Source: a bacterium UBP4_UBA6127 (GTDB lineage Bacteria; UBP4; UBA4092). Taken from it: a stretch of 64,000 nucleotides of DNA. The position numbers and the translations under genes are program-made. Shown here in pieces: positions 4,653 through 23,268 of this stretch; position 1 is the stretch's first letter; every line of letters starts with the position of its first letter. The stretch spans positions 34,486-98,485 of the forward strand of contig DIVR01000021.1 of the NCBI GenBank assembly GCA_002428325.1. The letters are read 5' to 3'. The notes under the pieces were generated by a model. The model was not told where the DNA came from. It searched no databases and saw only the letters and a program-made list of their open reading frames with translations.

Positions 4653-4821
4653 ATTAATATCAAACCAATACTATCCTTTAGGGAGTAGAGTTATACTCTC
4701 TACCCATTGAGTTATATATTATATCTTTTATGCCAACTATCGAGTAGGAGGCGGCTGATTATTTGTACATCCAGCTTGCACTGGTTTTTTACTATCTACA
4801 ATATGAAATCTCCAGGACAAA

Positions 4822-4861
4822 AACTAAAAAAGCGTCCCTTTACTCCAAGTAAAGGGACGCT
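4822..4861 (-). terminator. Rho-independent terminator for the 4888..6366 gene
   Basis: On the minus strand a 13-bp stem (AGCGTCCCTTTAC / GTAAAGGGACGCT) with a 5-nt loop is followed by TTTTTTAGTTTTTG, about 25 nt after the stop. Confidence 0.7.
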
Positions 4862-4887
4862 CATAAATAATTCAAAGGATATTGGGA

Positions 4888-6366
4888 TTATTCGTATAAC
4901 ATCCACTCTTTAGATGTGCCAGTAACAAAGAATGAACCACCCATAACCGTCTGTTTAGTCTCCAAAACAAAGTTATTAGGACCATCCGGAGGTGAATAAA
5001 CTCTGAGCAACTCGCTGATACTATCAGTAATATAAACATTGCCCACTGCATCCAGATCAATAGCTCTCGGAGTAGCACTAGCCCATGGTACCAGGGTCAA
5101 TTGGGTACTCAGATTTCCCAAAGGAAGAGGCAACGGACAAGATCCCAGTCCAGGGCCACCTTCTGTTAAGGCAAAAAGCATTCTTCCATGGTTTTCATCC
5201 AGAGCAAATCCACCAATCATTCCTCTGATGGGATCAGGAGTTGTATTACTATTTCCTGTTGAAAGGGAATCCCACAAAAGAGTTGACCCTGTAGAATCAA
5301 AAACCACTAAGCAGGGATAATCAGTTCCCGCAGAACGATAATTAGCTACATACCAATTCCCGGCAGAGTCGCGACGGACAGTTCCCGGGGTAGAATTAAC
5401 TAAGATACCTAAAGTAGAATCCCCCGGATAGGTTGTAAAGGTACTGTCGTTAATAGCTACTGTTGGAGCGGTAGTCCATGGAAAGGGTCCATTCCCCACA
5501 GGATATTTCCAAATGCTGCATTGCTGAATATCTCCAGCGGCAGGTAAATCTTCATCCTGGGTATAAAGGACCGTCTGGGTACCTGTTCCTTCTACATATA
5601 CCCCGGAGACGCTTCCATGCAGACCAGCGACCAATCCGGATGACAACTGTCCAGTGGTATCAAAGACCATCGTGAAATTACCGGACAAATCAGGTTCCGC
5701 CAAAAAAACATTTCCATGAGAATCTGACCAGTCAGCAATCCAGAGTCTACCGTCCGGACCCACAAAAAGGTGATAGGGACTGGATGTACCACTTGTCCCC
5801 CAATTAATACCTCCAGAACGGGCCACTGTTCCAATCGAAAGAGGATCAGACCCATCAGGATATAAGGCATATATGCCATCACCCATTAAACGGCCTGAGG
5901 CTGTCGGAGTCGTTCGGGTGTTGGTAATATAAACCATACCAAAATAGGGATCACCGCTATTTTTATTAACAGCACATCCTCGAGGACTCTCAAACTGGAA
6001 GATACTTTCAGCATCATTGGAAATAATATTCCATGTAGTATGCCCCACATTATCCACAGCAATAATCCTGAAACCATAATTGGCTGTCGTAGTGGCTGAG
6101 CCTCCCTCTGTTTTACCATCCCAGAATACTTGGTTATATCCTTTGAAAGGTGTACTTTCCAAGTTGCGAACAACAGTGGTATCTGGTAAAGGGCCATATA
6201 TTTGAACAGTTACAGCACTACAGGTTTCGTTTAATCGATAAGTAATTTTGGGAGCCACTCCGGTTGTGTTAACCGAAACAGAAAAAGGCATGACATTCGC
6301 AAAAACTGCACTGGTGAAAATTAACAATAAAAATACGCTCAAACAACATACAAAAATCTTTTTCAT
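4888..6366 (-). CDS. Secreted hypothetical protein, probable beta-propeller fold
   Basis: Signal peptide MKKIFVCCLSVFLLLIFTSAVFA. Gly/Ser/Thr/Asp-rich with repeated motifs (...GRLWIADWSDSHGNVF..., ...GNWYVANYRSAG...). No catalytic motif recognised. Confidence 0.55.
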   Translation of the reverse strand: MKKIFVCCLSVFLLLIFTSAVFANVMPFSVSVNTTGVAPKITYRLNETCSAVTVQIYGPLPDTTVVRNLESTPFKGYNQVFWDGKTEGGSATTTANYGFRIIAVDNVGHTTWNIISNDAESIFQFESPRGCAVNKNSGDPYFGMVYITNTRTTPTASGRLMGDGIYALYPDGSDPLSIGTVARSGGINWGTSGTSSPYHLFVGPDGRLWIADWSDSHGNVFLAEPDLSGNFTMVFDTTGQLSSGLVAGLHGSVSGVYVEGTGTQTVLYTQDEDLPAAGDIQQCSIWKYPVGNGPFPWTTAPTVAINDSTFTTYPGDSTLGILVNSTPGTVRRDSAGNWYVANYRSAGTDYPCLVVFDSTGSTLLWDSLSTGNSNTTPDPIRGMIGGFALDENHGRMLFALTEGGPGLGSCPLPLPLGNLSTQLTLVPWASATPRAIDLDAVGNVYITDSISELLRVYSPPDGPNNFVLETKQTVMGGSFFVTGTSKEWMLYE

Positions 6367-6740
6367 TCCTTTTTACCTCCATTCATTTGTAAATGATAAA
6401 TTAAATAACACAATCCTCACTGGGTGATTTATGATGCTTTTTTCCGAAACCTCCTTTCATAAAACCCACACCCAGTAATCTATCTCATTTTATACAGCCA
6501 CCCCTGTTTTTTGTCAATATATTTTTATCGTACCCAGCACCCAGTAAATAGTCATCCAGTATATTCATTTCAAGGGTTTCATTTTACTAATCAACAAGTT
6601 GGAAGATCTTCAGGCTCTTATGGAAGAAAAAGATTTTTCTTATATTCAATTGCTAAAGAATCATATTTCGACAGTTATCAAATTTAGTCAATGAATAATA
6701 CCAGATAGTCATCATTTCCATGCTGTCAGCACCCATTATA

Positions 6741-6774
6741 ATTATGTTCAAATAGAATGCGGGGCCTGCTTAAG
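6741..6774 (-). terminator. Putative terminator hairpin after the 6813..8624 gene
   Basis: GC-rich near-palindrome GCGGGGCCTGCTTAAGCAAGCCCCGC lies 40 nt past the stop and is followed on the minus strand by ATTCTATTT. The U-tract is weak. Confidence 0.4.
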
Positions 6775-6812
6775 CAAGCCCCGCCATAAGTATCGTAATG
6801 CCAAAATAAATA

Positions 6813-8624
6813 CTATTCTTTGATCAACGGTGCATCAGTGGGAGTCACTGAAACCGAAGCTGACGCAGACCATCCATTGACCGACTCAGCAGTAACCTGA
6901 GCAGTACCAAGAGTAGTCCCCAAATTAATTGTCGCAGTATCACCTGAAGCCACACCAATAGCAGCTATCTCTGTACTGCTGGAGACCCAGGTTAGATGGG
7001 CTCCATTAGGAGCATATCCCGCCACACCCTTCAAAGCAGAACTGCCTGAACCGGCTGTTGCATAAGCGGTGTTGGTAACATTCAGATATTTACCACCCAC
7101 AGCGGTTAATTCGGCATTGGAATTAGGCTGACCGGTAATGCTTTTCGGTAGAACCTGCAAAGAAATATCATCAAAGCTGACCGACTGGAAGGAAGGATCC
7201 GCAAAAATATTATTGGTCAGAGTCAAAGTCCCTGCCGTTGTGGAACGATTAATCCCAGCATCTGTCGCTGTTGCCAGAAAATAGGATCCTGTCGTAACCA
7301 AAGCACAATTTGTGATAGAAAGGTTAACCGCCGGAGTTGAGAAATCAATCAGGTTGTTAACTGTAGTGCTGGAACCGGCAATCCCTGAACCAGCAATAAC
7401 TGAATCAGAAATTGTAACCGATCCTGTTCCTGTCCCTACATTCGCAACTGTCAACCGAATAGGGCCATTCACACTGGTTTCCAATGTAGAAGTCCCATTT
7501 CCATAAAATGTACAATTAGTGAAATTCCAAGTTCTCTTCATTTCATCGGCCGGATAAAGTCCATTTCTCACATTACCGGCAAAAATACAATGGTCAAAAG
7601 TAATTCCAGGGAGTGAATCAGCATCATCGGCAAACATCCCAATCACACCTTCCTGGTTATTATTCACTACATAAACATAATGAAGTTCATAGGCTCGAGC
7701 AGAATCACCGTTGTCATCCGAGAACAATGCTAATGCGCCATTACCTGTGCTTAGATAACCATTTCCCAGAATCCAGATGGGGGTGGTGGCTGTTCCAAAC
7801 ATCTTAACGACTGTAGAGTCCGTGGCAATTTGAATACCCACTCGATCCATATAAGAAAACACACAGGGACCATACATAACCAATTCCTGGCCATTGTCAG
7901 GAACCCAAATCATACCATCAGGCGAATTAAGTCCACCATGCTGATTGGTGGAAATAAACTTAGTGATTGTGCAATAAGAATAATTACCTGCCAGGTTCAT
8001 ATGGTCATCTCTGAAGGTTGTGCCGGAACCAATAGCCACATAAGTCATTCCATCTGTAGATAAAGGTGCATTAGAACCATCATTCCCGGTAATCAGTATA
8101 TCATCTAAAATTAACCCAATGGTTGCCGTTGGATCTAAACCAGTGGCATTTGTATTGGACCGAATCCCTCTTAAGGCAGCATTCCCCATTTGAGGAATAA
8201 TGCTTAAGTTTTTCAAGACCACATCAATGTTAGCTCCACCTGTAGGAATAAAGATAGCAACACCAGAATCATTGACAGAACTGGCTAATCCGGCAGTTTT
8301 TCCAGCCACAATCACTGGACGGTAATTCAACCCTTGAATAGTGACACTTGTCTGAATCGGCACTCCAGTTGCTTCTATATAGGGTCCACCACCAGTAATA
8401 TTAATAATATCCGGAGTAGAAGCATCTGCTGTTACCGCTGAATAAGCTCCACTGATGGTAGTATAATTACTACCTGATTGAGGTTGGGTATCATTAACTG
8501 TAACCGTCTGAGCACAAGCAAATGAAACCATAACCATGGAAGCTATTGACAAAAATAATTCCCTTTTCATTGTGAATTTCTCCTTTATATTTTTATTACA
8601 ATAATTCATAACCTCATTACTCAT
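6813..8624 (-). CDS. Secreted protein with parallel beta-helix-like repeats and a C-terminal Ig-like (Big_2-type) domain
   Basis: The signal peptide begins at the internal Met (MKRELFLSIASMVMVSFACAQT), so the likely true start is about 8570. The sequence is Gly/Asn/Thr-rich with repetitive beta-strand periodicity. The C-terminal about 80 aa (...VTAESVNGWSASASVSVTP...) resembles a bacterial Ig-like domain. Confidence 0.5.
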   Translation of the reverse strand: MSNEVMNYCNKNIKEKFTMKRELFLSIASMVMVSFACAQTVTVNDTQPQSGSNYTTISGAYSAVTADASTPDIINITGGGPYIEATGVPIQTSVTIQGLNYRPVIVAGKTAGLASSVNDSGVAIFIPTGGANIDVVLKNLSIIPQMGNAALRGIRSNTNATGLDPTATIGLILDDILITGNDGSNAPLSTDGMTYVAIGSGTTFRDDHMNLAGNYSYCTITKFISTNQHGGLNSPDGMIWVPDNGQELVMYGPCVFSYMDRVGIQIATDSTVVKMFGTATTPIWILGNGYLSTGNGALALFSDDNGDSARAYELHYVYVVNNNQEGVIGMFADDADSLPGITFDHCIFAGNVRNGLYPADEMKRTWNFTNCTFYGNGTSTLETSVNGPIRLTVANVGTGTGSVTISDSVIAGSGIAGSSTTVNNLIDFSTPAVNLSITNCALVTTGSYFLATATDAGINRSTTAGTLTLTNNIFADPSFQSVSFDDISLQVLPKSITGQPNSNAELTAVGGKYLNVTNTAYATAGSGSSALKGVAGYAPNGAHLTWVSSSTEIAAIGVASGDTATINLGTTLGTAQVTAESVNGWSASASVSVTPTDAPLIKE

Positions 8625-8748
8625 TTGTATCCACCTCCTCCACTGTTAAAAATGCAAATATCTGTTATAAAAAAATCTTTTACCTTAATTCTAAATTCAT
8701 GTCAAGTCTTCTATCCCTAATAATTAGAATATCAATAATCTATGAAGA

Positions 8749-8787
8749 TTAAAAATCCCCCGGGGTAGTTTAGTCCCCCGGGGGGAT
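8749..8787 (-). terminator. Rho-independent terminator for the 8820..10376 gene
   Basis: A CCCCCGGGG ... CCCCCGGGGGG inverted repeat forms a GC stem and is followed on the minus strand by ATTTTTAATC. Confidence 0.6.
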
Positions 8788-8819
8788 ATAAGAAGTTTTA
8801 CCCTTCTTCTCGCGAAAAT

Positions 8820-10376
8820 CTATTCAAACAATTCATAGATTGATTGACGGGCCAGGGGGGCATTGGTTGCTAATACCGTAATATCTTTGGTCCCCTGATG
8901 CCCATTGGCATCGGTGCAAGTAACAGTCACCACACCCACTTCAGGTCCTGTGGTTAAGGTTGCTTGGTTACCTGTTTCATTAGATATTGTTCCCATGGTT
9001 GAGGAGGAAACACTCCACGTGTAGGGAGCTGTTCCATCTCCGGTCTCTTCCAGGATAATCTGCTGCCCGACTCCAATTTCAATGGCATTGGTCGGGGAAA
9101 TCTCAATTCCTTTGATGGAAATAGAATTGGTGCAATCCAGATTCCCGGATGTATCCTGAACCACTACAATGGCACGCCCTTTGGCGGTCGGAGTAAATAA
9201 TCCGGTGGAGGATATCGATGCAGCCCCAGCAAGGACTTCAATACTGTATGAAGCACTGCCATCCCCGCCGTTTACAGTAAATTGAATAGTGGTTTCATTA
9301 GCCCAAATCTCATTCACAGGAAGGATGGTGTTGGGGACCAGGGTAATATCCCTGCGCAAACGGACAATATCTCCATCATAGGCATTGGTCATCATGCATT
9401 CTGTATCATTGGCAAGCATCTGAGACATGGCCGGAGTCCGGAAATTAGCACCCACAGTTAAAATAGAGCTGGTCGGCAGCATATCCCCATAGACCGCATC
9501 AAAGAAATAAATCCCGGTAGTATCGGCTGTCTGCACTGCATAAGGGGCATTATAAACCGCCACCACCCTGCTTTCATCAGGGCTCAAAGAGATATTTCTG
9601 AAACCATATCCTGAATTCTCGACCGCATTATGAATATCGATAGTAGTGAATACAGGATCCGGACTGTACCCGGAAGCGATACTGCCAGTATATTTGTAAA
9701 TCTTATTCACATAACGAGCGGCAATATACACCGAGTTGGAATCCTTTTTAGCAACACTGCCTTCCCAGACATAACCGCCTCCATTGGCCGTGTCCACATC
9801 AAAACTCTGTAGAGGACTGATCTGTGTTCCATTCCAGGTGCTGGGATGAGAATAAATCTCTACCCGTTTCTTATTAATGCTGGTCAGGTTGGAATACTGG
9901 AAAATGTAATAATTTACGTAGATTCGACCCTGGTCATCGCAACTGACCCCATAAACTCGGGCATTGGTGGTAGGAGTCGGCACCACGGGCGTCATGGTCT
10001 TGGGATTCAAATCCATATCCCAAGAATAAAGCCGACAATTCACATTATCGGCCACCACCACCCAACCGTCCGGGGTGACTGTAATTCCACGTATTCCCGA
10101 AGTATTTCCCGAGCCCAGGGTAGTCCCTGTACCCCAATTGGTTGCGGTCGTGATGACATAAGTGGTATTATCGGAAAAAACCATCTTGTGAATATATCCG
10201 GCATTAATGTTAGCTTCAAAAAAGGTGGTGTCATTGACCCTGCATAATCCCCACCCTCGGTTTGCATCTACATACTGATTCGCAACCTTCCAAGATGTAG
10301 TCAGGGCCTGTTCGGCGGCGGCCATGGAGACCATGACAAACAACGCCAAAACCATCATTACTATTACTTTTTTCAT
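8820..10376 (-). CDS. Secreted protein with two C-terminal Ig-like (Big_2-type) domains
   Basis: Signal peptide MKKVIVMMVLALFVMVSMAAAEQA. Beta-rich N-terminal domain. Two C-terminal repeats of about 80 aa (...GAASISSTGLFTPTAKGRAIVVVQD...; ...GTISNETGNQATLTTGPEVGVVTVTCTD...) typical of Big_2 surface/adhesin domains. Confidence 0.55.
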   Translation of the reverse strand: MKKVIVMMVLALFVMVSMAAAEQALTTSWKVANQYVDANRGWGLCRVNDTTFFEANINAGYIHKMVFSDNTTYVITTATNWGTGTTLGSGNTSGIRGITVTPDGWVVVADNVNCRLYSWDMDLNPKTMTPVVPTPTTNARVYGVSCDDQGRIYVNYYIFQYSNLTSINKKRVEIYSHPSTWNGTQISPLQSFDVDTANGGGYVWEGSVAKKDSNSVYIAARYVNKIYKYTGSIASGYSPDPVFTTIDIHNAVENSGYGFRNISLSPDESRVVAVYNAPYAVQTADTTGIYFFDAVYGDMLPTSSILTVGANFRTPAMSQMLANDTECMMTNAYDGDIVRLRRDITLVPNTILPVNEIWANETTIQFTVNGGDGSASYSIEVLAGAASISSTGLFTPTAKGRAIVVVQDTSGNLDCTNSISIKGIEISPTNAIEIGVGQQIILEETGDGTAPYTWSVSSSTMGTISNETGNQATLTTGPEVGVVTVTCTDANGHQGTKDITVLATNAPLARQSIYELFE

Positions 10377-10646
10377 AACTCTTGTCTCCTATTTTAGTTT
10401 TTTAATGGTTCTAAGTACTTAATACATTAAATCCACTTCTAAAACATTTGAGTAAAACAAGAACTTTTATCTTTCACCTCCTTCTATTTTTTCGTTGCTT
10501 GGAAGAATATTTCTGGTCATTACAACTCTTCCAGTCCTCTGTTACGCGTAGTATAAAACGACCCCCTATCCCTGTCAAGCAAAAATGTAGATTATTATTC
10601 AAAACTTAACTATTTTGTATTATTCAATTCAGTTCACTCATATTAA

Positions 10647-10683
10647 GACAGAAAAGCCCGGTGAAGAAAATCTCCCCACCGGG
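10647..10683 (-). terminator. Rho-independent terminator for pseudopilin gene 1
   Basis: Stem GCCCGGTG / CACCGGGC followed on the minus strand by TTTTCTGTCTT, immediately after the stop. Confidence 0.7.
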
Positions 10684-10705
10684 CATCAAAATCAGCGTTT
10701 GTATA

Positions 10706-11326
10706 TTACTCTTCAGTTACTACACCTTTTTGAGAACGAATAATATCTCCATTTGAAACCGTTCCGTTACTAGGGTCATAAACCGCTAAACCATCAAAAA
10801 AACCATGGCCGGCAGCATCTGTATAAGTTGCCACTCGATCCGGTCCCGCTGAACTTAATCGCCAAAAACCATATTTACGAATCGCCGTTTGAACCTCTAC
10901 TGTATCGCCTGGATGCGGAAACCAAGCTTCAGCCTGGGCAGAATTATGCCCTTTCAATTCCGCGTCATAATTAATATAACGATACCGGGTTCCCGGAGTC
11001 CCCGGAATTGCTGATGGCATTCCCTGCCGGAATAGATCATTGATTAATCCAGTAGAAATATAGGCAATAGGAGTAGAAATAACAGAGGGCAGATACCAGG
11101 GCCAGCCAGTCGGGTCAATATCATCAGGATAAACATTATAGTCCACAAAATAAGATTCTAAAGCTGTTGTTAAAGTCTGTTCTTCTCCTTTGACCCGCGA
11201 TACCCTGGCTCGCGTCTGGGCAGCTAAAAAGTTCGGGATAGCAATCGCCGCCAAAATAGCAATAATCGCCACAACAATCAATAATTCAATTAAGGTAAAA
11301 CCACTTTTTTCACTTTTCTTCATCAT
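10706..11326 (-). CDS. GspG-like prepilin/pseudopilin (prepilin-type N-terminal cleavage/methylation domain protein), paralog 1
   Basis: N-terminus MMKKSEKSGFTLIELLIVVAIIAILAAIAIPNF matches the class III signal peptide with the G^FTLIELL cleavage/methylation motif. GspG-like ...SSAGPD... segment. C-terminus ...YDPSNGTVSNGDIIRSQKG is shared with the two neighbouring paralogs. Confidence 0.8.
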   Translation of the reverse strand: MMKKSEKSGFTLIELLIVVAIIAILAAIAIPNFLAAQTRARVSRVKGEEQTLTTALESYFVDYNVYPDDIDPTGWPWYLPSVISTPIAYISTGLINDLFRQGMPSAIPGTPGTRYRYINYDAELKGHNSAQAEAWFPHPGDTVEVQTAIRKYGFWRLSSAGPDRVATYTDAAGHGFFDGLAVYDPSNGTVSNGDIIRSQKGVVTEE

Positions 11327-11433
11327 TACACCTCCTTCCCTGAAAACCTAATAAGTATCACAAGCATCCGCTTCCGTCAACAATTTATTTCATAATCACA
11401 CTACAAAATTGCTTAAATCTTTCCTATCATTAA

Positions 11434-11468
11434 CAAAAAAGAGGCATTCCCCTTTAGGAAATGCCTCC
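11434..11468 (-). terminator. Rho-independent (bidirectional-looking) terminator for pseudopilin gene 2
   Basis: Stem GAGGCATT / AATGCCTC flanked by A6 / T6 runs. On the minus strand the hairpin is followed by TTTTTTGTT. Confidence 0.75.
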
Positions 11469-11487
11469 GAAAAAAATTTACATAATA

Positions 11488-12066
11488 TTACCGAGGGCTG
11501 GAATCTTCATTAGGATTTTTCTGAGACCTCATGATATCCCCATTGGAAACGGTTCCATTGGTTGGATCATACGGAAAAAGAATGTTGTAGGAATATCCTT
11601 GATAAGATAAATAACCTGTCGGCCCAAAAATCCGGTCTGGACCGGATGAACTCAATCTCCACTTCCCATAAAAACTACCATAAGCCTCTGCAGCCGCACT
11701 TCCCTTGATATACAGCGAATCCACTTCCATATAACGGTATCTCATGTAGGTAGCTGCACTGTCTGGAGCCCGGAAAGGGTCCAAAAAGGAATTAGAACTT
11801 AAATAGGCTATCGGTGTGGTGATCACATTGGGGACATACTGAGGCGCTGTCACAAAAGGCTCAACACACCAAGGGTATTCATTATTATCAACAAAATAGC
11901 TCTCTAAAGCGGTGGCCAATGATTGCAACTCTCCCTTAGCTCGTGATACTTTAGCTCTGGTCTGAGCGGCCAAAAAGTTGGGAATAGCAATGGCCGCCAA
12001 AATCGCAATAATCGCCACGACAATCAACAACTCAATCAGGGTAAAACCTTTTTTATTACTTTTCAT
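11488..12066 (-). CDS. GspG-like prepilin/pseudopilin, paralog 2
   Basis: N-terminus MKSNKKGFTLIELLIVVAIIAILAAIAIPNFLAAQTRAKVSRAKGELQSLATALESY is nearly identical to paralog 3. C-terminus ...YDPTNGTVSNGDIMRSQKN. Confidence 0.8.
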   Translation of the reverse strand: MKSNKKGFTLIELLIVVAIIAILAAIAIPNFLAAQTRAKVSRAKGELQSLATALESYFVDNNEYPWCVEPFVTAPQYVPNVITTPIAYLSSNSFLDPFRAPDSAATYMRYRYMEVDSLYIKGSAAAEAYGSFYGKWRLSSSGPDRIFGPTGYLSYQGYSYNILFPYDPTNGTVSNGDIMRSQKNPNEDSSPR

Positions 12067-12564
12067 TCAATATTCACCTCCTCTATTTTTTTATGTTTAA
12101 TTAACTGTCTTTTTCGAAATTGCTTAGAATTTACCAATTTTGTAACCTTCTGTCAATAGTCCTACAAAAAAGAATCTTCTCATCAGGTTTACCGGAATGG
12201 GAAATACTGATGTAGATATTTTATATATTATTGAGATAATAGTGGTTACGAGATACTCACCATTCTCACAAATACTCCTTGAAAAAACAGCATAATAATC
12301 ATTTTTATTAATATAGACTCAATAGACCTATTAAGGCATAAATCTTTTTTCTGATTAATAGACAGGGGATGATGACCACAAGCGTATACCGAGAAAGCAA
12401 TATAGGTTTCACCTTCAGCCTCCATCAGATTCTAGAGGGAAAAGCCTCTCATTGAAGTATCCTTCAACAAAAGGAATTTGTTCGGAGAGGTAACGGAGAG
12501 GGTCCGACCCTCTTTCCCTTGTTAAGCGACCTAGATCATAATGGTAATGAAACACATTGAGCCA

Positions 12565-12596
12565 TAAAAAATCGGCATCCGTTAATGGATACCGAT
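12565..12596 (-). terminator. Rho-independent terminator for pseudopilin gene 3
   Basis: On the minus strand ATCGGTATCC-attaac-GGATGCCGAT is followed by TTTTTTATGG, about 25 nt after the stop. Confidence 0.7.
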
Positions 12597-12619
12597 AAAT
12601 CAACAGGGTATAGAATGAA

Positions 12620-13225
12620 TCATTCATAATTATTCGGGTGTTTCTGGCTGCGAATGATATCTCCATTGGAGACAGTTCCATTACTGGGGTCATAAGCTAT
12701 GGTAATGTCCCATAAACCAAAAGGGGTACCTTTCCCATCCGCATCCGGAGTATAGCCTTTATCCGGCCCCAGAGAAACTATACGCCAACCCCCAAAAGCG
12801 TTTTGGTAAGTTGCTGTATAAATATTCCTCCATCCTAAGGAACCATCTCCGGTATTAGAATATCGATATCGAGTTAATAAAGGGTCATCTCCAGGATTTA
12901 ACGATCCCCGGAAAGGGTCTTTCAATAAATTGGATGAAATATAAGCTATCGGAGTGGTTACCTCATTGGGCATATACCAATAATAAGCTTGATTCGACCA
13001 TGTTTCTGATCCATCCTGGGGCCAAACATTATTATCCACATAATAAGATTCCAACGCTGTTGCCAATGTCTGCAGTTCTCCCTTAGCCCGGGAGACTTTT
13101 GCCCGGGTCTGGGCCGCCAGGAAATTAGGAATTGCTATCGCCGCTAAAATGGCTATGATCGCCACCACAATCAACAATTCAATCAAGGTAAATCCTTTAT
13201 TCTTTCTTTTCATGATCTTAAGCAC
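12620..13225 (-). CDS. GspG-like prepilin/pseudopilin, paralog 3
   Basis: The ORF starts MLKIMKRKNKGFTLIELLIVVAIIAILAAIAIPNF; the real start is probably the MKRKNKGF Met at about 13213. ...VSLGPDKG... segment and C-terminus ...YDPSNGTVSNGDIIRSQKH. Confidence 0.8.
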   Translation of the reverse strand: MLKIMKRKNKGFTLIELLIVVAIIAILAAIAIPNFLAAQTRAKVSRAKGELQTLATALESYYVDNNVWPQDGSETWSNQAYYWYMPNEVTTPIAYISSNLLKDPFRGSLNPGDDPLLTRYRYSNTGDGSLGWRNIYTATYQNAFGGWRIVSLGPDKGYTPDADGKGTPFGLWDITIAYDPSNGTVSNGDIIRSQKHPNNYE

Positions 13226-13476
13226 CTCCTTTCCAGTTATTTAATTTCTCACTTAATCACTATCTACATCTCTTTCCTCATTATCAGAATCCCTCTTCCT
13301 TTTGTCAAGTCTCTTATCTAAAGAGTCCATTTAATCACCCTTTTTTACCTATTTTCCTGTGGTATAATTCAAGGAGAAATATTGATAAATTCAGTCAATA
13401 ATAGAGTTTTTTTCCAAACCCAAGCAGCGGGGAAGAAAAAAGGAGCTGTTTAGGGAAGGAAGAGAGGGATCCAGGA

Positions 13477-15045
13477 ATGAAAGTCACCCTGATTACGCCA
13501 TGTCCGGCGGACATAGCCGCTTATGGGGTTCGAGCCTTATCGGCCTATATAAAAGAAAAGACATCTCATCAAGTGAATTTAATCCTTCTGCCTGGGGGGT
13601 TGGAATTACTGGATTCAGAGAATTTTGCCCAATATCGGTATCCCCAAAGGGTCTTGGAACAGATTGGGGAAATATGCCGGGATTCCGGATTCATTGGAAT
13701 ATCTTTCATGACTAATTATTACGACCGGGCAGTGGAAGTAACCCATTACCTCCGGGAAAGATATCCTGATAAACATATCAGCTGGGGAGGTACCCATCCT
13801 ACCATCAAACCCCTGGAAGCTCTTGAGTTTGCCGATTCGGTCTGCCTGGGGGAGGCCGAAGAATCTCTGGTGGAACTATTGGAAAAGATGGAGGCCGGTG
13901 AGAATTTTACCGGAACCCGAAACTTCTGGTTCAAGGATCCCTCCCATCCAGGCCAATACCTGAAAAACACCAAACGCCCCCTGTTACAGGACCTGGATAA
14001 GATTCCTCCTTATGATTATGAGCTGGATAACCAGTACTTTTTTGACCATCTAAAAGGGGAAATCATTCCCCTGGATTATGAGACCTTCCATAAGGCCAGT
14101 AATGTCCTGCCTTATTTTGATAATAAACTCCTTAAATCTTATCGGACCATGACCACCCGGGGGTGCCCTCACCGTTGCAATTATTGCAGTAATTCCTGGT
14201 TGAGGGATATGTATGCCCCAGAACACTTTTTTCGGCACCGGGGACCGGACCATTGCATCCGTGAGTTGAAAGATATCAAAACCCGTTTCCCCTTTATTGA
14301 GATTATCCAATTTTTTGACGATACCTTTTTTGCCCATTCCTCCAAATGGCTGGAAGAATTCCTGCCGAAATACAAGCAAGAAATCGGGCTACCTTTTTAT
14401 TGCCAATGTTCACCCGCCACGGTCTCTGAAAAGAAAATGGAGATGATGTTGGATGCCGGGATGTGTTATGTAGAAATGGGTATTCAGACCGGTTCTGATT
14501 CCATTCAGAGGCTTTATGACCGGCGAACCCCTAAAGAACTCATCGTTAAAGCCACCCAAATTATTAATAAATATGTGGACCGGCTGATTCCGCCTACATA
14601 CCATTTTATTATTGATAACCCCTGGGAATCCCACCAGGAAACCCGGGAAACTATTGACCTGTTAACGCAGATACCCAAACCGTACAATCTGGTATTATCG
14701 AGTTTGCTGTTTTATCCGGCGACAGCCTTGTTGGACAGGGCTATGAAAGAGGGATTGGTGACCGATGAATTGAAACAAGTCTATCGACAGCCTTTCCTGA
14801 ATCCAAAACCCAATTATCTGAATGCCCTGATGTATGCTTCCCAGTATGGGACTCTTCCCAACCCCCTGATAAAGACCCTTTCAACCAACAGGGTTATTCA
14901 GGCCATGGATAAAAAAGGATTATCTCCCTTCTATGGGATGGTCTTTAAAGCAACCGACCTGGCTCACCTGTTGAACAGGGGACGTTGCGCAGTCATGGCG
15001 GGAGATTTTGGCCGGATCGTCAACTACTTCCGGCGGATAAAATAG
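13477..15045 (+). CDS. B12-binding domain-containing radical SAM protein (class B radical SAM), paralog A
   Basis: N-terminal Rossmann-like B12-binding region. Radical SAM cluster motif RGCPHRCNYCSNS (CxxxCxxC). 522 aa. The AGGAG-like sequence aaaaaggagc lies upstream of the ATG. Confidence 0.75.
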   Translation: MKVTLITPCPADIAAYGVRALSAYIKEKTSHQVNLILLPGGLELLDSENFAQYRYPQRVLEQIGEICRDSGFIGISFMTNYYDRAVEVTHYLRERYPDKHISWGGTHPTIKPLEALEFADSVCLGEAEESLVELLEKMEAGENFTGTRNFWFKDPSHPGQYLKNTKRPLLQDLDKIPPYDYELDNQYFFDHLKGEIIPLDYETFHKASNVLPYFDNKLLKSYRTMTTRGCPHRCNYCSNSWLRDMYAPEHFFRHRGPDHCIRELKDIKTRFPFIEIIQFFDDTFFAHSSKWLEEFLPKYKQEIGLPFYCQCSPATVSEKKMEMMLDAGMCYVEMGIQTGSDSIQRLYDRRTPKELIVKATQIINKYVDRLIPPTYHFIIDNPWESHQETRETIDLLTQIPKPYNLVLSSLLFYPATALLDRAMKEGLVTDELKQVYRQPFLNPKPNYLNALMYASQYGTLPNPLIKTLSTNRVIQAMDKKGLSPFYGMVFKATDLAHLLNRGRCAVMAGDFGRIVNYFRRIK

Positions 15046-15069
15046 GTTTATTCAAACAAGGAGCAATGA

Positions 15070-16590
15070 ATGAAAATCGTATTAATCTCCCCGTTTCCCA
15101 CCCTTTCTGCCCTTGGGGTAAGGGGACTCTCATCCTGGCTGAAACAAAATGGACACCAAGTCCAGGTTTTCCATATGGCACGCCCTTCAATGGAATTCTC
15201 GGATAAACTTGAATATAGGCTTCAATATCCCGATAAAGCCTATGACCAACTGGCTGAATTATGCAAAGATTGCCAGTTAATTGGAATCTCCCTCTTCACC
15301 CAGCACTATGAAGGAGCTCTCCATATCACGGAAGCTTTAAAGAAAAGGATTCCCCAAATTCCTGTTATCTGGGGTGGCATCCATCCCACGGTAAAACCGG
15401 ATGAATGTATTGAACATGCTGATTTCATCTGCCGGGGTGAAGGAGAAGAAAGCCTGTTGGAACTGGTTACCCGGATGGAAAAAGGTGAAAACCTGACAAC
15501 CATCCCCGGTATCTGGGCCCGTAAAGGAAAAGATATCTTCAAAAATCCTGAATGGCCCCTGGTTGAAGACTTGGATCGATATCCAATCTATGATTATGGC
15601 ATAGATGACCATTTTATCTACCTGGAAAATGAAGAGAAAATCACCCCCATGACTTGGGAGCTTCTGAAAGACCATATGGACAAGGATGCCCTTGATTCCA
15701 AAAAAGGCTCTCAGGGTAAGGGGACACTGTATTCCACTCTTGGAACCCGGGGCTGCCCTTTAAATTGTTCTTATTGCTGTAATAATGCTTATCGAAAACT
15801 CTATCCCCGCCAGAAATATGTCAGGCATAGAAGCATTGGTCATATTATCAGTGAATTGGTCTGGGTCCGGGAACATATGCCCTGGGTTACCATGGTCTGT
15901 TTTGAAGATGATTCCTTCCTGACCGCCTCTATTGAGGAAATTCAGGAATTCGCCCGGCTTTATAAAGATAATGTAGGGCTTCCCTTTCGCTGCCTCCATG
16001 AACCACTGACTTTTAACCTGGAAAAAATGAATGCCTTGCTGGAAGCTGGCTTGGTGGGTATTCAAATGGGCATTGAAACGGCTGCCCCCAATACCCTGAA
16101 AATGTACAACCGGGGAGGTCTGGGTAAGAAAATCATGGAAGCGGCCCAGATTCTGGCCGATGTTTCAAAAACTTCCCAGAAGCCTTTCTATATCCTTTAT
16201 GACTTGATTATCGATAATCCCTGGGAAACCGATGATGACCTTCTGGAAACAGTGAAATTTGTTGTGGATCTGCCGGGTAATTTCCACTTAAATATCTTCA
16301 GCCTGGTCTTTTATCCCGGGACAGAACTCTATGAACGAGCCAAACGGGAAGGCCTCCTGACAGATGAAACTAAACAGATTTACCGGAAAACTCCTGATAT
16401 TAAAAAGCAGACTTATATTTCTTTCCTGCTGATGCTTCTGAAAAAAAGAGTTCCTCATTTCATCTTAAGACCCCTGGTCCATCCTGCTGTGGTAAAAGTT
16501 CTCAATTATAAAAGATTCCGCTGGATTTACCAGTCTATTTTCAAAACCATCCATATCCTTCGTCAGGTCCCCCAAAGAACAGGAATCTGA
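15070..16590 (+). CDS. B12-binding domain-containing radical SAM protein, paralog B
   Basis: Same architecture as 13477..15045, with clear similarity along the whole length. CxxxCxxC motif RGCPLNCSYCCNN. Separated from paralog A by only 24 nt. Confidence 0.75.
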   Translation: MKIVLISPFPTLSALGVRGLSSWLKQNGHQVQVFHMARPSMEFSDKLEYRLQYPDKAYDQLAELCKDCQLIGISLFTQHYEGALHITEALKKRIPQIPVIWGGIHPTVKPDECIEHADFICRGEGEESLLELVTRMEKGENLTTIPGIWARKGKDIFKNPEWPLVEDLDRYPIYDYGIDDHFIYLENEEKITPMTWELLKDHMDKDALDSKKGSQGKGTLYSTLGTRGCPLNCSYCCNNAYRKLYPRQKYVRHRSIGHIISELVWVREHMPWVTMVCFEDDSFLTASIEEIQEFARLYKDNVGLPFRCLHEPLTFNLEKMNALLEAGLVGIQMGIETAAPNTLKMYNRGGLGKKIMEAAQILADVSKTSQKPFYILYDLIIDNPWETDDDLLETVKFVVDLPGNFHLNIFSLVFYPGTELYERAKREGLLTDETKQIYRKTPDIKKQTYISFLLMLLKKRVPHFILRPLVHPAVVKVLNYKRFRWIYQSIFKTIHILRQVPQRTGI

Positions 16591-16678: not shown

Positions 16679-17518
16679 CTAATCTGTATCAGGGTCTCCA
16701 GGGGAACGGAGCTGGCCCCGGACATCACCAAATAAAAGGACACCCCTGACCACAGCTTCCAGGGGAACCAGTTCCTTATCAAACCAAACCTCAATATTTC
16801 CATCCCGGGATTCAAACAAGTCATCATCCATTCTTATTTTGACCAAAAACTGACGATTGGCATATTCCGTTTCTTTTCGAAGGCGGTTCTGAGCCTCTTC
16901 AATAGATGCAATATTGAGCCGAATCCGTTTTTCCTTTTTATCAGGACAGGTTTTCACATCAACAATTTTCCCTGGTTCGACTGTGCCATACACTCCAAAC
17001 CGGAGGTTATAAAAAGCACATAGAGGGTCATCATAATAAACCCCTTCAGGGATTGGATGGGTTCCATGCCCTACCAGTTTCCCTTTTTTCCATTTTTGCC
17101 AGTTCACCAGGCGTTTCTCGTAGTCATATTCAGTAATCAGCTGCCGGGAAATCTTCCCGCTCCGAATAGTGATATTCTCAAATTTTTGGGAAATCAGCCT
17201 CTTTCCATCAGGTGATACAATTACATGGGAAATGATTTTTTGAGACATATTTCTAAATAACAGTATCCGGATGAGTTTTGAGACTTTGGCTTCTAATGTT
17301 GCCACATATCCATGTTTAACAGTCGAATCTGGTTTAAAACTGAATTCAGCCTTGGCCGCATTGGGGAAAGGGAAAAAGCTCACACTATATTTCAGAGATT
17401 CTCCATCAAAATGGCTGCCAATATTTCTATGGTTTTGATATTCAACCGAATTTCCCGGCACTCCGGCCAGTAAAATCCAGACAAATAAAGACAAAGATAA
17501 AATTATTCGAAATTTCAA
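16679..17518 (-). CDS. Exported hypothetical protein (DUF3108-like)
   Basis: Signal peptide MKFRIILSLSLFVWILLAGVPG. The GESLKYSVSFFPFPNAAKAEFSFK segment resembles the GExLxYxVxxxxxPxAxxAxF pattern of DUF3108 proteins. It is the last gene of the minus-strand glycan operon. Confidence 0.45.
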   Translation of the reverse strand: MKFRIILSLSLFVWILLAGVPGNSVEYQNHRNIGSHFDGESLKYSVSFFPFPNAAKAEFSFKPDSTVKHGYVATLEAKVSKLIRILLFRNMSQKIISHVIVSPDGKRLISQKFENITIRSGKISRQLITEYDYEKRLVNWQKWKKGKLVGHGTHPIPEGVYYDDPLCAFYNLRFGVYGTVEPGKIVDVKTCPDKKEKRIRLNIASIEEAQNRLRKETEYANRQFLVKIRMDDDLFESRDGNIEVWFDKELVPLEAVVRGVLLFGDVRGQLRSPGDPDTD

Positions 17519-17603
17519 TACATTACTCCTGTGGGCATTAAAACATAATGCAGATAATTATATCTATTTTACCATCATTTCTGGGGATTCCTTAATCCTC
17601 AAC

Positions 17604-19199
17604 CTACGGTTTAAAGACAAGAACCTGTCTTCCCTCATATCCCATAACCTGAGTTTTCCCTCCCACCTGTTGTTGGAATATCGGTAAATGGTCTTTTTCA
17701 GATAGTAGTATATAGGTTCGTTTTGATGTTATGGTGGTAAAAACAAGGTCTGACCATTCATTGATATAACAGACCTTAGCGTTGGCTGGTAAATAGAAAC
17801 TGGCAGACCATCGATTTTCGGAATGGACAAGGATACCATCCTCTGGCCGAAAGTCTTTCTGAATAATCCGGCATAATTCCCGAGTGGAGTGATAATAGGT
17901 ATAATCAGTCAAAACTCCCCAATGGGATATATATGTAAAAACCAGCACCAAGACTATCATCACCCCACCAAAAGCCCATCGGTTTCCTCGAAACCATAAT
18001 CCAATATAGGGAATGATTCCCATTAAGCAAAGAAAAACAGCCTCCTGCCATAAAGGACGGCCGGTGGTTTCTATGGCTTTGGCCATCAGAATACGAATCG
18101 GCTCAATAAAATCAGCTGCCAGTATCCCAGCTCCTATTAATATCAGGATTCCGCTGAATAATTTCAACGCAATTCTATCTTTATCCCATATTTCATCCCA
18201 ATAACCCCCTAAAAGTAAGGCCAATGGCACCAAATAAGGGAGAATATAAGTGGGTAGCTTGGATTTTGAAAGTGAGAAAAAGATAAATCCGATCAGGAAC
18301 CAGATAACACATAAAAACTTATTGTCATCCTGAAACCAGCGGATTAGTTTTCCCTCCCGGTCTTCTGTTTTCAGGGTTCGCCACAGAAATAGGCTCCAGG
18401 GAAATATCCCGAAAAATACTATGGGAATGAAAAAGTAAATCGGCTCAGACCGTCTATGGATTTTGGTCAGGAATCTCAGAAGATTCTCCTGGATAAAAAA
18501 GAAATACAAATAACCGGGAAACCGCTGTTCTGCCAGTAAATACCAGGGCAGAGAAATGATAAGAACCACCAGGATTCCCCAACCCAATTTCATTTCCTTC
18601 CATCGGGAAAACTGATGGGTCTTCCATAGATAAGTTATAAGAATCAAACCCGGAAGAGCAATTCCCACCGGACCTTTGGTTAACATGGCCAATCCGCCAA
18701 AAACATATCCAACCCAGTAAAACCCCTGTTTCCGGAATTTTAATCCTCCCAGAAAACAAACAATTAATCCAGTCATGAAAAAGGTCAACGCCATATCGGT
18801 TATGACATACCGGGACAAGGTATAAAACTCCGGAAACACCATTAATATCAAGGCAGAAAGAAACCCGGTCCGAGAGTTCCACAACCAGCACCCCACCAGA
18901 TAGGTAAGCACGAGGGTTCCTAAGGCCATGAGCAGGGGAATCATCCTGGCTCCCAGCTCATTGATTCCAAAGACGTTCATGCTCAAAGCTACCATCCAGA
19001 CAAAGAAAGGAGGCTTGTCCAGATGGGGTTGATGATTCAACCAGGTAACCACCCAATCCCCAGTCTCCAAGATGGTCTTTGCCATGATGGAATATCGGGT
19101 CTCATCCCTGTCGGTCAGAGGTAATTGACTCATCCCTTGGGAAAGAAATATCATCCCTAAGATTAAAACCGATAGAATCGCATAAAAATGCTTCTTCAT
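17604..19199 (-). CDS. GT-C family membrane glycosyltransferase, ArnT/PMT-like (GT83/GT39)
   Basis: First periplasmic loop carries the ArnT-family motif DRDETRYSIMAKTILETGDW (DExRY) followed by KPPFFVWMVALSM. About 12 TM helices. The ORF track extends to 19250, but the MKKHFYAIL Met at 19199 has an AGGAG 6 nt upstream and avoids overlap with the upstream gene. Confidence 0.8.
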   Translation of the reverse strand: MKKHFYAILSVLILGMIFLSQGMSQLPLTDRDETRYSIMAKTILETGDWVVTWLNHQPHLDKPPFFVWMVALSMNVFGINELGARMIPLLMALGTLVLTYLVGCWLWNSRTGFLSALILMVFPEFYTLSRYVITDMALTFFMTGLIVCFLGGLKFRKQGFYWVGYVFGGLAMLTKGPVGIALPGLILITYLWKTHQFSRWKEMKLGWGILVVLIISLPWYLLAEQRFPGYLYFFFIQENLLRFLTKIHRRSEPIYFFIPIVFFGIFPWSLFLWRTLKTEDREGKLIRWFQDDNKFLCVIWFLIGFIFFSLSKSKLPTYILPYLVPLALLLGGYWDEIWDKDRIALKLFSGILILIGAGILAADFIEPIRILMAKAIETTGRPLWQEAVFLCLMGIIPYIGLWFRGNRWAFGGVMIVLVLVFTYISHWGVLTDYTYYHSTRELCRIIQKDFRPEDGILVHSENRWSASFYLPANAKVCYINEWSDLVFTTITSKRTYILLSEKDHLPIFQQQVGGKTQVMGYEGRQVLVFKP

Positions 19200-19233
19200 G
19201 AAATACTCCTGAAACACAACAAATTGACCGGTC

Positions 19234-22122: not shown

Positions 22123-22143
22123 CGGCTATTAGTTCCCTCCCCA

Positions 22144-23262: not shown

Positions 23263-23268
23263 CCCGGC

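What the first reader, a model, noticed from the sequence alone, without database searches (positions are those of the whole stretch)
4888..13225. Array of three individually terminated GspG-like pseudopilin paralogs next to three large secreted Ig-like / beta-helix / beta-propeller proteins
Three paralogous prepilin-type genes (10706-13225, minus strand) share the class III signal peptide (KGFTLIELLIVVAIIAILAAIAIPNF) and a conserved C-terminal block (YDP-S/T-NGTVSNGDI-I/M-RSQK), but their central regions diverge. Each has its own strong rho-independent terminator and a long upstream spacer. That pattern suggests separately regulated, possibly interchangeable major subunits rather than one operon. 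Directly downstream on the same strand are three signal-peptide proteins of 490-600 aa, two of which carry Big_2-type Ig domains typical of adhesins. No assembly ATPase, platform protein or secretin is nearby, so the filament system these subunits feed (T2SS endopilus, type IV pilus or a PVC-type system) is not defined by this window. Variable-subunit pilin arrays linked to secreted Ig-like proteins are poorly characterised.
Basis: partly seen in the sequence, partly recalled or inferred. Interest (0 to 1): 0.55.

Follow-up and report, generated by a model that had tools for sequence, protein, structure and literature searches.

The report
Pilin trio with tagged secreted proteins
An uncultured bacterium carries three separately transcribed pilus-subunit genes from a large unnamed GspG-like family, next to secreted sugar-polymer-type proteins that share an unusual C-terminal tag, and this arrangement recurs in related genomes.

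Summary
Three complete prepilin genes lie at 10706-13213 on the minus strand. Each has G-1/F+1/E+5, 59-60% identity to the others, and its own terminator. No pilus or secretion machinery lies in the 64 kb window.

They are not interchangeable variants. P1, P2 and P3 are three old orthogroups, each under purifying selection and each conserved across four species in shuffled order.

The function of the cassette and the identity of the assembly machine remain inferred.

The parts
12620..13213 (-). Pilin P3 (197 aa), a prepilin of the TTPIAY/SxGPD/YDPSNGTVSNGDI family. P3 orthogroup, C-terminus ...HPNNYE.
11488..12066 (-). Pilin P2 (192 aa), P2 orthogroup.
   Evidence: Found on three source contigs. 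Orthologs: L004 53%, L084 46%. Absent from L086.
10706..11326 (-). Pilin P1 (206 aa), P1 orthogroup, C-terminus ...GVVTEE.
   Evidence: Orthologs: L086 89%, L004 68%, L084 65%.
12571..12596 (-). Intrinsic-terminator-like hairpin plus T-run after P3.
   Evidence: dG -15.6 kcal/mol.
11440..11468 (-). Intrinsic-terminator-like hairpin plus T-run after P2.
   Evidence: dG -19.8 kcal/mol.
10656..10684 (-). Intrinsic-terminator-like hairpin plus T-run after P1.
   Evidence: dG -21.3 kcal/mol.
13280..13308 (-). Sigma-70-like promoter upstream of P3 (TTGACA-17-GATAAT, 11 of 12).
   Evidence: This is a consensus match only.
12128..12156 (-). Sigma-70-like promoter upstream of P2 (TTGACA-17-TAAATT with TG). 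This promoter/5'UTR region is 76-84% identical to the region upstream of the P3-type gene in L086.
11354..11380 (-). Possible promoter upstream of P1 (TTGACG ... TGTGATACT). Read by eye and not called by the scan.
   Evidence: Sequence. Weak.
8820..10376 (-). Secreted 518-aa protein: signal peptide, NHL-type beta-propeller, Ig-like domain, and a C-terminal Ig tag ending ...ATNAPLARQSIYELFE. A promoter-like site lies at 10578-10550.
   Evidence: (TRIM71 NHL, E 2e-5). Ortholog in L086 at 76%.
8820..9107 (-). C-terminal Ig-like tag module of the 518-aa protein.
   Evidence: Alignment A4. Pfam: K319L_PKD, Big_2 and BiPBP_C, all sub-threshold. No NCBIfam sorting-domain hit.
6813..8570 (-). Secreted 585-aa protein (603 aa from the ATG at 8624): signal peptide, right-handed parallel beta-helix, and a C-terminal Ig tag ending ...TPTDAPLIKE.
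6759..6784 (-). Terminator-like hairpin after the 603-aa gene.
4888..6366 (-). Secreted 492-aa protein: signal peptide, FlgD-like Ig domain, NHL/'Pizza'-type beta-propeller, and an aromatic terminus ...TSKEWMLYE.
   Evidence: A distant homolog (L118_496) sits next to a homolog of the 603-aa protein.
4830..4862 (-). Terminator-like hairpin after the 492-aa gene.
13477..16590 (+). Two paralogous B12-binding radical SAM genes, divergent from the pilin array. They are conserved neighbours in L086/L087 and L084 but absent from L004.
   Evidence: No specific link to the pilins could be shown.
16679..19250 (-). DUF3108 and a PMT_2 (GT-C) glycosyltransferase, at the end of a Wzm/Wzt glycan cluster. 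PMT_2 lies upstream of the pilin array in the window, L086, L084 and L004. DUF3108 is seen in the window, L086 and L004.

Best explanation
The locus is a conserved, modular cell-surface cassette of an uncultured diderm bacterium. NCBI lists its relatives only as 'bacterium', and the pilin family is otherwise typical of Candidatus Sumerlaeota. Shown: it encodes three distinct, anciently diverged classes (P1, P2, P3) of major-type type IV filament subunits with a GspG-like, disulfide-free fold. Each is its own transcription unit with promoter, RBS and intrinsic terminator. Inferred: a prepilin peptidase encoded elsewhere cleaves them after Gly-1. A type IV filament machine encoded elsewhere polymerises them. 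That machine is most likely the type IV pilus reported in all Sumerlaeota MAGs. The products would be either different filaments or a mixed filament. Shown: the adjacent genes encode Sec-exported NHL beta-propeller and polysaccharide-enzyme-type beta-helix proteins. These share a C-terminal Ig-like module ending in '...PTxAPLAxE(LFE)', or an aromatic terminus '...EWxLY(E)'. Inferred: these termini act as a common sorting or docking signal that brings the proteins to the cell surface or the filament, where they bind or process polysaccharide. This would resemble the beta-helix tapirins encoded beside the Caldicellulosiruptor type IV pilus locus. Shown: the cassette evolves by reshuffling, namely pilin copy number 2-4, changed gene order, a promoter/body mosaic and swapped cargo types.
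For: Prepilin signature and models. Fold closest to EpsG/PulG. The globular profile aligns in the same order with PulG motifs, including SLGPD. No Cys pair is present (direct reading). Family size: 5,993 and 3,619 clusters; more than 465 copies in GTDB species genomes, almost all Sumerlaeota, with several loci per MAG. Monocistronic design: (48 of 111 against 137 of 1,052). Old paralogs under purifying selection: 4-fold sites are 32-45% identical within the invariant helix, while orthologs keep 85-89% amino-acid identity in the middle region with about 35% identity at 4-fold sites. Three orthogroups occur in four species in different orders. L086 mosaic. Cassette recurrence: L086/L087, L084, L004, L090 and L074. 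Tail regex: found only in cassette proteins among 2,644 ORFs, plus one likely false positive. Aromatic tail: 17 of 1,886 ORFs, with about 0.2 expected by my own estimate; 4 lie directly after a pilin; the bodies are diverse. Beta-helix fold. NHL propellers. A PilT-size ATPase sits next to a family pilin in L008. Type IV pilus genes occur in all Sumerlaeota MAGs (PMC8092238). Tapirin precedent: bioRxiv 10.1101/359786.
Against: No machinery lies in the window or near 77 of 80 related loci, so T4P versus T2SS-like is unresolved. The best structural and Pfam matches are to T2SS GspG, not to type IV pilins. Every gene has its own promoter and terminator, so co-regulation of pilins and large proteins is not shown. 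L085 has 7 tandem pilins without tagged proteins. L117 and L118 have homologs of the 603-aa and 492-aa proteins without pilins within 10 kb. Most Sumerlaeota family pilins have unrelated neighbours. The Ig tag could simply be a shared domain inherited by duplication within the cassette. No expression, localisation or binding data exist. The phylum of the window's organism was not established.
Confidence: 0.5

Rival explanations
1. The three proteins are pseudopilins of a type II secretion-like endopilus. The adjacent tagged proteins are its cargo, and the shared C-terminus is a secretion or surface-retention signal for that pathway.
For: GspG/PulG are the top structural matches. PF08334 passes for P2 and P3. 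PulG is the only pilin type found by the globular profile, with matching motif order including SLGPD. There is no disulfide, as in GspG. The neighbours are Sec-exported enzyme-like or binding proteins with a common terminus. There is precedent for C-terminal tags on T2SS-dependent surface proteins: GlyGly-CTERM (PMC6219818) and MYXO-CTERM (PMC11980579), both.
Against: The proteins fall below the GspG equivalog cut-off. They are not in a gspC-M operon. Three conserved orthogroups, arrays of up to 7-8 tandem copies and strong individual terminators are untypical of a T2SS major pseudopilin. A PilT-size ATPase lies next to a family member, and T4P genes are reported for Sumerlaeota. The tags lack the motif, TM helix and basic cluster that define known T2SS-linked sorting signals.
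Confidence: 0.2
2. The pilins and the large proteins have no direct functional link. Both are surface or secreted components that sit in a variable 'surface island' at the edge of a glycan-biosynthesis cluster, and the synteny reflects shared ancestry of closely related genomes.
For: All genes are separate transcription units. L085 has pilins only. L117 and L118 have the beta-helix and propeller proteins without pilins. Most family pilins elsewhere have other neighbours. The upstream PMT_2/DUF3108 synteny shows that these genomes share gene order generally.
Against: Adjacency survives extensive turnover. Pilin identity between species is down to about 50%, silent sites are saturated, pilin number and order change, and cargo types are swapped even between strains (L004 against L090), yet the tagged proteins always follow the pilin array. 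More distant genomes repeat the pattern: in L046 a homolog of the 603-aa protein directly follows a pilin, in L074 an Ig-tagged protein does, and in L055, L058 and L078 aromatic-tail proteins do.
Confidence: 0.22
3. The proteins are pilin-like but do not form filaments. They would be membrane-anchored or periplasm-spanning proteins of an expanded paralog family, comparable to the DUF1559 proteins of Planctomycetes.
For: The family is strongly expanded and mostly orphaned from machinery. DUF1559 is a documented case of a large paralogous family of unknown function (PMC10632474).
Against: There is no hit to DUF1559 or HX9DG models. The N-terminal 55 residues, including Glu+5 and the whole polymerisation helix, are almost invariant across the 68 aligned members, as expected for subunits that pack into a filament core. 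The compact size of about 200 aa and the GspG-like fold point the same way.
Confidence: 0.08

Closest known systems
T2SS major pseudopilin GspG (PulG/EpsG; PF08334, TIGR01710)
   Different: About 60 residues longer. Family-specific TTPIAY and RYRY motifs, and a 10-45 aa insertion before an invariant YDP[ST]NGTVSNGDIxR block. Below the equivalog cut-off. Not in a gsp operon. Multiple conserved paralogs, each monocistronic.
Organisms with several major type IV pilins (Thermus thermophilus PilA4/PilA5 wide and narrow pili; Streptococcus sanguinis PilE1/PilE2 heteropolymeric pilus)
   Different: Only fold-level similarity. Here there are three orthogroups of a different family, the machinery is unlinked, and tagged secreted proteins are adjacent. 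That these systems use multiple major pilins is from my own knowledge of the PDB entries, not tested here.
Tapirins of Caldicellulosiruptor (bioRxiv 10.1101/359786)
   Same: Secreted beta-helix proteins encoded beside type IV pilus genes that bind polysaccharide (cellulose). The layout matches: pilus genes followed by beta-helix proteins.
DUF1559 / H-X9-DG prepilin-like paralog families of Planctomycetes and other PVC bacteria
   Same: A prepilin N-terminus on a lineage-expanded, mostly orphan paralog family of unknown function (68 copies in Planctopirus limnophila, PMC10632474).
   Different: No sequence match to those models. Different C-terminal signature. Smaller proteins.
Small C-terminal sorting signals (GlyGly-CTERM/rhombosortase, MYXO-CTERM/myxosortase, PEP-CTERM, T9SS CTD)
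   Same: A shared C-terminal element on otherwise unrelated exported proteins. GlyGly-CTERM and MYXO-CTERM proteins depend on a type II secretion system (PMC6219818, PMC11980579).
   Different: The tags here have no hydrophobic helix or basic cluster. They end in acidic/aromatic residues (…ELFE, …DWxLY). No NCBIfam sorting-domain model matches. No candidate sorting enzyme was identified.

Membership tests
Prepilin-type (class III signal peptide) proteins, TIGR02532 / PF07963 | Short basic leader, Gly-1, Phe+1 (N-methylated), Glu+5, and a hydrophobic helix of about 20 residues. | tested here: met
   PF07963 scores 35-42 bits (cut-off 21.2) and TIGR02532 scores 35-38 bits (cut-off 16.3) for all three. 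The residues can be read directly.
GspG major pseudopilin (TIGR01710 equivalog) | Full-length score above the curated cut-off of 88.85 bits. | tested here: not met
   Scores are 45.6, 55.1 and 54.9 bits, and only residues 1-62 of the model are matched.
GspG major pseudopilin (Pfam T2SSG, PF08334) | Domain score above the gathering threshold of 21 bits. | tested here: inconclusive
   P2 scores 24.2 and P3 scores 23.4, both passing but only over profile positions 2-72 of 108. P1 has no hit.
GspG major pseudopilin | Encoded in a gspC-M operon with the ATPase, platform protein and secretin. | tested here: not met
   No such genes occur in the 64 kb window. Only 3 of 80 related loci have a T2SSE-type Walker A ATPase, and those are PilT-sized.
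GspG major pseudopilin | Calcium-binding loop near the C-terminus in place of a disulfide. | tested here: inconclusive
   SxGPD aligns with PulG SLGPDG (non-significant E-value). The invariant DPSNGTVSNGD block is rich in Ca-ligand-type residues. No metal-aware model or coordinates were examined.
Type IVa major pilin (PilA/PilE type) | C-terminal disulfide-bonded D-region. | tested here: not met
DUF1559 / prepilin-associated H-X9-DG domain | A match to PF07596 or TIGR04294. | tested here: not met
   Neither is listed at E<=0.01 in the Pfam or NCBIfam scans.
Verru_Chthon cassette proteins (TIGR02596, TIGR02599) | Score above the cut-offs (70 and 256.5 bits). | tested here: not met
   Scores are 23 bits and at most 17 bits, on the N-terminal helix only.
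Pectinesterase CE8 (PF01095), for the 603-aa protein | A full-domain match that includes the catalytic region. | tested here: not met
   Pfam gives no hit. The profile matches only pectinesterase residues 9-59, the N-terminal cap. The fold is a generic right-handed beta-helix.
Big_2 Ig-like domain (PF02368), for the C-terminal module | Score above the gathering threshold of 22.8 bits. | tested here: inconclusive
   4 of 10 modules match, best E 2.1e-6. The window's 518-aa module scores 19.7 bits, below the cut-off. K319L_PKD, Big_9 and BiPBP_C score similarly.
Known C-terminal sorting domains (PEP-CTERM, GlyGly-CTERM, MYXO-CTERM, T9SS CTD) | A signature motif followed by a TM helix and basic residues, or a match to a T9SS CTD model. 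| tested here: not met
   The tails end in ...APLAxELFE or ...DWxLY with no hydrophobic stretch. No NCBIfam sorting-domain hit at E<=1.

The most novel reading that the evidence does not exclude
The short termini '...PTxAPLAxELFE' (on an Ig-like module) and '...SVxDWxLY(E)' are a previously undescribed class of C-terminal sorting, secretion or docking signal without a transmembrane segment, found in Sumerlaeota-like bacteria. They mark diverse exported beta-helix, beta-propeller, CBM and peptidase proteins for export through, or attachment to, filaments built from the GspG-like pilin family. The pilin paralog classes would specify different filament/cargo combinations.
Probability: 0.25. Interest if true: 0.8.

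Novelty: new variant of a known kind. Interest (0 to 1): 0.5.

Why it matters
Type IV filament subunits are well known, but this family has no curated model or studied member. It has a GspG-like fold and its own invariant signature, spans thousands of sequence clusters, and is expanded in a phylum known only from metagenomes. The cassette ties three conserved subunit classes to secreted polysaccharide-type proteins with shared C-terminal tags. That gives a concrete, testable handle on how uncultured Sumerlaeota-like bacteria attach to or degrade polymers. If the tags are real signals, it would also point to a sorting or secretion signal linked to a type IV filament system. No linear signal is established for T2SS cargo (from my own knowledge, not checked here).

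Tried and rejected
1. A word-indexed homology search with the C-terminal tag profile returned only 2 short proteins and not even the seed proteins, so it is uninformative.
2. The metagenome scan first failed because the alignment was too diverse. With the GxAPYTW core it mostly retrieved unrelated Ig domains inside other proteins, some with T9SS-like tails. Only L090 was a true cassette. The Ig core is therefore generic, and only the terminal position plus the tail is specific.
3. A specific radical-SAM/pilin link was rejected. The two B12-rSAM genes are conserved neighbours in three genomes. L004 lacks them, and the rSAM genes next to other family pilins (L119 and others) are only about 22% identical generic relatives.
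4. Riboswitch or other known RNA in the long spacers: the Rfam E-value scan of 4000-14000 found nothing credible.
5. Pseudogene remnants of pilins in the 553-bp P3-P2 spacer: none.
6. Recent gene conversion or antigenic-variation cassettes: rejected because silent sites are saturated between paralogs and all copies are complete, expressed-looking genes.
7. L122, from the same sample, as a second locus of the same organism: rejected because its GC is 38.6% against 43.6%.
8. Pilin glycosylation by the conserved upstream PMT_2: the synteny is noted, but nothing tested supports or refutes it.
9. The taxon of the window could not be established. NCBI titles of the nearest relatives say only 'bacterium'.
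Full report
OBSERVATION. Three minus-strand ORFs encode prepilin-type proteins: P3 at 12620-13213, P2 at 11488-12066 and P1 at 10706-11326. The likely P3 start is the ATG at 13213. It has an AGGAGG 11 nt upstream, gene callers use it, and the 197-aa product is in the public collection. All three have a short basic leader, Gly-1, Phe+1, Glu+5 and the identical helix FTLIELLIVVAIIAILAAIAIPNFLAAQTRA. All three end in YDP(S/T)NGTVSNGDI(I/M)RSQK. Overall identity is 59-60% and the middle region is divergent. A back-translated GFTLIEL pattern hits only these three sites in 64 kb, against 0.01 expected. PF07963 and TIGR02532 pass their cut-offs. Each stop codon is followed within about 50 nt by a G+C-rich hairpin and a T-run: 12596-12571, 11468-11440 and 10684-10656, with dG -15.6 to -21.3 kcal/mol. 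P3 and P2 have good sigma-70-like sites upstream. Three signal-peptide proteins of 518, 585/603 and 492 aa follow on the same strand. Pfam scans of the 52 ORFs of at least 150 aa show a Wzm/Wzt glycan cluster, glycosyltransferases, methyltransferases, PMT_2, DUF3108, three B12-radical-SAM genes, LysO, galT/galK, HypF/HypD, AspRS, an O-antigen ligase and a lipid A acyltransferase. This is a diderm organism, and no pilus or secretion ATPase, platform protein, secretin or prepilin peptidase is present.

SOURCE. The same locus occurs on a 220-kb ENA contig, a 136-kb JGI contig (sample 3300002498, 'TOLCLC') and a Logan assembly. Nearest relatives in NCBI are labelled only 'bacterium'. I could not establish the phylum.

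WHAT THE PILINS ARE. Beyond residue 70, no curated model and no PDB sequence matches. The globular domain defines a family with the signature LESYYVDNNxYP, TTPIAY, DPF, RYRY, W-x-x-x-S-x-GPD and YDP[ST]NGT[VI]SxGDIxR. An exhaustive HMMER search with a globular-only profile finds 5,993 50%-identity cluster representatives at E<=1e-3 and 3,619 at E<=1e-10, nearly all about 200 aa. In one-genome-per-species GTDB contigs, the motif YDP[ST]NGT[VI]S gave more than 590 matches, 465 of them confirmed. The best 80 are almost all Candidatus Sumerlaeota/BRC1 MAGs, often with several loci per MAG.

'GspG-like' is therefore a fair description of the fold. Membership is not supported. TIGR01710 scores 45-55 bits against a cut-off of 88.85. 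PF08334 passes narrowly for P2 and P3 only. DUF1559/HX9DG and the Verru_Chthon cassette models do not match. Whether the conserved C-terminal block is the second half of the GspG calcium loop, after a family-specific insertion, remains an inference from this alignment.

NOT INTERCHANGEABLE VARIANTS. Within the invariant N-terminal 58 codons the paralogs share 49-53 amino acids but only 76-78% of nucleotides. At 4-fold degenerate sites they match at 7/22, 10/23 and 9/20. They are therefore old duplicates held by purifying selection, not recent gene-conversion products. Orthologs in L086 keep 97/114 and 108/122 residues of the 'variable' middle region while 4-fold sites are about 35% identical.

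Across the window, L086, L084 and L004 the pilins fall into three orthogroups:
- P3-type, C-terminus H(P/T)NNYE, 50-86% identity.
- P1-type, C-terminus GVVTEE-like, 65-89% identity.
- P2-type, 46-53% identity.

The orders differ. The window is P3-P2-P1, L004 is P2-P3-P1, L084 is P1-P2-P3 plus a fourth pilin, and L086 is P3-P1. The first pilin of L086 has a P2-type promoter and 5'UTR (76-84% identity to the window's P2 upstream region, against 42-56% to P3's) joined to a P3-type body. A deletion between the conserved 5' ends of adjacent P2 and P3 genes in a P2-P3-P1 ancestor would produce exactly this.

The self-terminated design is a family trait. 48 of 111 family pilins are followed by a hairpin plus T-run, against 137 of 1,052 control ORFs. 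Tandem arrays recur in 15 of 80 loci, with up to 7-8 copies in L018 and 7 in L085.

WHICH MACHINE. Only 3 of 80 related loci have a T2SSE-type Walker A ATPase within 10 kb. All three are PilT-sized. In L008 the ATPase sits directly upstream of the pilin with no other machinery. Fang et al. report type IV pilus twitching genes in all Sumerlaeota MAGs (PMC8092238). This favours a type IV pilus over a T2SS but does not settle the question, and the window's own genome was not surveyed.

THE LARGE PROTEINS AND THE LINK.
- The 518-aa protein has NHL repeats.
- The 492-aa protein has a FlgD-like Ig domain and an NHL/'Pizza'-type propeller.

The cassette recurs as follows:

| Locus | Upstream genes | Pilins | Large proteins (aa) |
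|---|---|---|---|
| L086/L087 (P3 ortholog 86-87%) | PMT_2, DUF3108, two rSAM | 2 | 519, 649, 603 |
| L084 | PMT_2, two rSAM | 4 | 468, 657, 632 |
| L004 | PMT_2, DUF3108 | 3 | 600, 610, 461 |
| L090 (strain relative of L004) | contig starts inside the first large protein | not on contig | 649-type replaces 600-type |

The 603-aa family also follows a pilin directly in the high-GC Sumerlaeota locus L046, at 25% identity over 551-560 aa (E 3.5e-18, 1.2e-22).

Whatever their body, the cassette proteins end in the same module. It is an Ig-like domain (G-x-A-P-Y/F-T-W ... VTVTD) that terminates in ...(I/V)T(V)x(P/A)Tx-A-P-L-A-x-E-(L-F-E). Examples are ATNAPLARQSIYELFE, TPTDAPLIKE, TPTAAPLAKELFE, ATEAPLATELFE and ATSAPLASEMME. 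A regex for this tail finds only cassette proteins among 2,644 ORFs of at least 150 aa in all collected loci, plus one likely false positive. The Ig core itself is generic. No NCBIfam sorting-domain model matches.

The 492-aa protein ends differently, in ...TSKEWMLYE. This belongs to a second terminus, [DEGS]-W-x-[LMVI]-[YF]-(D/E), usually preceded by S/T-V. It ends 17 of 1,886 ORFs of at least 200 aa, where I estimate about 0.2 by chance. Four of them start right after a family pilin (L046, L055, L058, L078). A second window protein (44164-45078) also carries it. The carriers have diverse bodies: CBM11-like, NHL, PD40 and SGL propellers, an S15 peptidase, and unknowns.

Against a strict link:
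- L085 has seven pilins and no tagged protein.
- L117 and L118 have homologs of the 603-aa protein (L118 also of the 492-aa protein) with aromatic tails and no prepilin within 10 kb.
- Most Sumerlaeota family pilins have other neighbours.

MECHANISM (inferred). P1, P2 and P3 are major-type subunits that a prepilin peptidase processes and a distant type IV filament machine assembles. Three conserved classes suggest distinct filaments or a mixed filament. The neighbours are Sec-exported glycan-binding or glycan-processing proteins. Their common termini plausibly act as a sorting or docking signal. The nearest functional analogy is the tapirins, beta-helix cellulose-binding proteins encoded beside the Caldicellulosiruptor T4P locus (bioRxiv 10.1101/359786). 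The main rival is a T2SS-like endopilus with tagged cargo, with GlyGly-CTERM and MYXO-CTERM as precedent for tags tied to T2SS. A second rival is synteny without function.

NOVELTY AND VERDICT. Multiple pilin genes and orphan pseudopilin-like paralogs are known, for example DUF1559 with 68 copies in one planctomycete (PMC10632474). New here are four things: the family itself, which is large, uncurated and unstudied; the three conserved subunit classes; the conserved cassette with polysaccharide-type proteins; and the two C-terminal tails, which match no known sorting signal. I rate it a new variant of a known kind and moderately interesting. The sorting-signal reading is the part that would matter most if confirmed.

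Noticed in passing
window 44164-45078 (-): A 304-aa signal-peptide protein with no Pfam hit ends in ...LDVRDWNLY. This is the same aromatic C-terminal motif as the 492-aa cassette protein and 15 other ORFs in Sumerlaeota-type loci. It sits next to a polytopic membrane protein (43022-44014), an O-antigen-ligase-domain protein (41538-43016) and a GH39 protein (40002-41459).
   Followed up: partly
L118 3710-11575 (Logan ERR15302206); L117 10001-11542: L118 has a cluster of four secreted proteins (579, 554, 496 and 524 aa). They include homologs of the window's 492-aa and 603-aa proteins and all end in ...(D/E/G)W-x-(L/M/V)-(Y/F). No prepilin lies within 10 kb. L117 has a lone homolog of the 603-aa protein ending ...DSWKLYD.
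   Followed up: partly
window 12415-12693 (-): A 92-aa ORF overlaps the 3' end of P3 in another frame and extends into the 553-bp P3-P2 spacer. Gene callers annotate part of it (83 aa) in three assemblies. No homolog or known RNA was found in the spacer, so it is probably spurious.
   Followed up: partly
window 13477-16590 (+) and 35447-36652 (+): There are three B12-binding radical SAM genes in 64 kb. The first two are 35% identical paralogs, divergent from the pilin array. They are conserved in that position in L086/L087 and L084 at 68-72% identity. Their substrate is unknown.
   Followed up: partly
window 16679-29527 (-): A long same-strand glycan-assembly cluster: Wzm/Wzt ABC transporter, a 1,094-aa triple glycosyltransferase, GT4, two methyltransferases (one with DUF4214), PMT_2 (GT-C) and DUF3108. 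It ends just before the radical SAM genes and the pilin array. The PMT_2-to-pilin synteny is conserved in four genomes, which raises the untested possibility of pilin or surface-protein glycosylation.
   Followed up: no
L085 6890-12283 (NCBI GCA_041890195.1) and L018 5305-12103: Arrays of 7 and 7-8 tandem family pilins. L085 follows groES/groEL. Some copies are separated by only about 25-35 bp and lack terminators, so some arrays may be partly operonic.
   Followed up: no
L122 10001-11464 (JGI 3300002498, same sample as the window's contig): A second, lower-GC (38.6%) organism in the same enrichment culture carries two tandem family pilins followed by a 565-aa protein. A 963-aa Kelch/fn3 protein lies about 4 kb further downstream. 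The family is therefore present in more than one community member.
   Followed up: partly
window 50547-52382 (+): A multi-PAS GGDEF diguanylate cyclase lies about 37 kb from the pilins. c-di-GMP often controls pili, but no riboswitch was found near the pilin genes.
   Followed up: no
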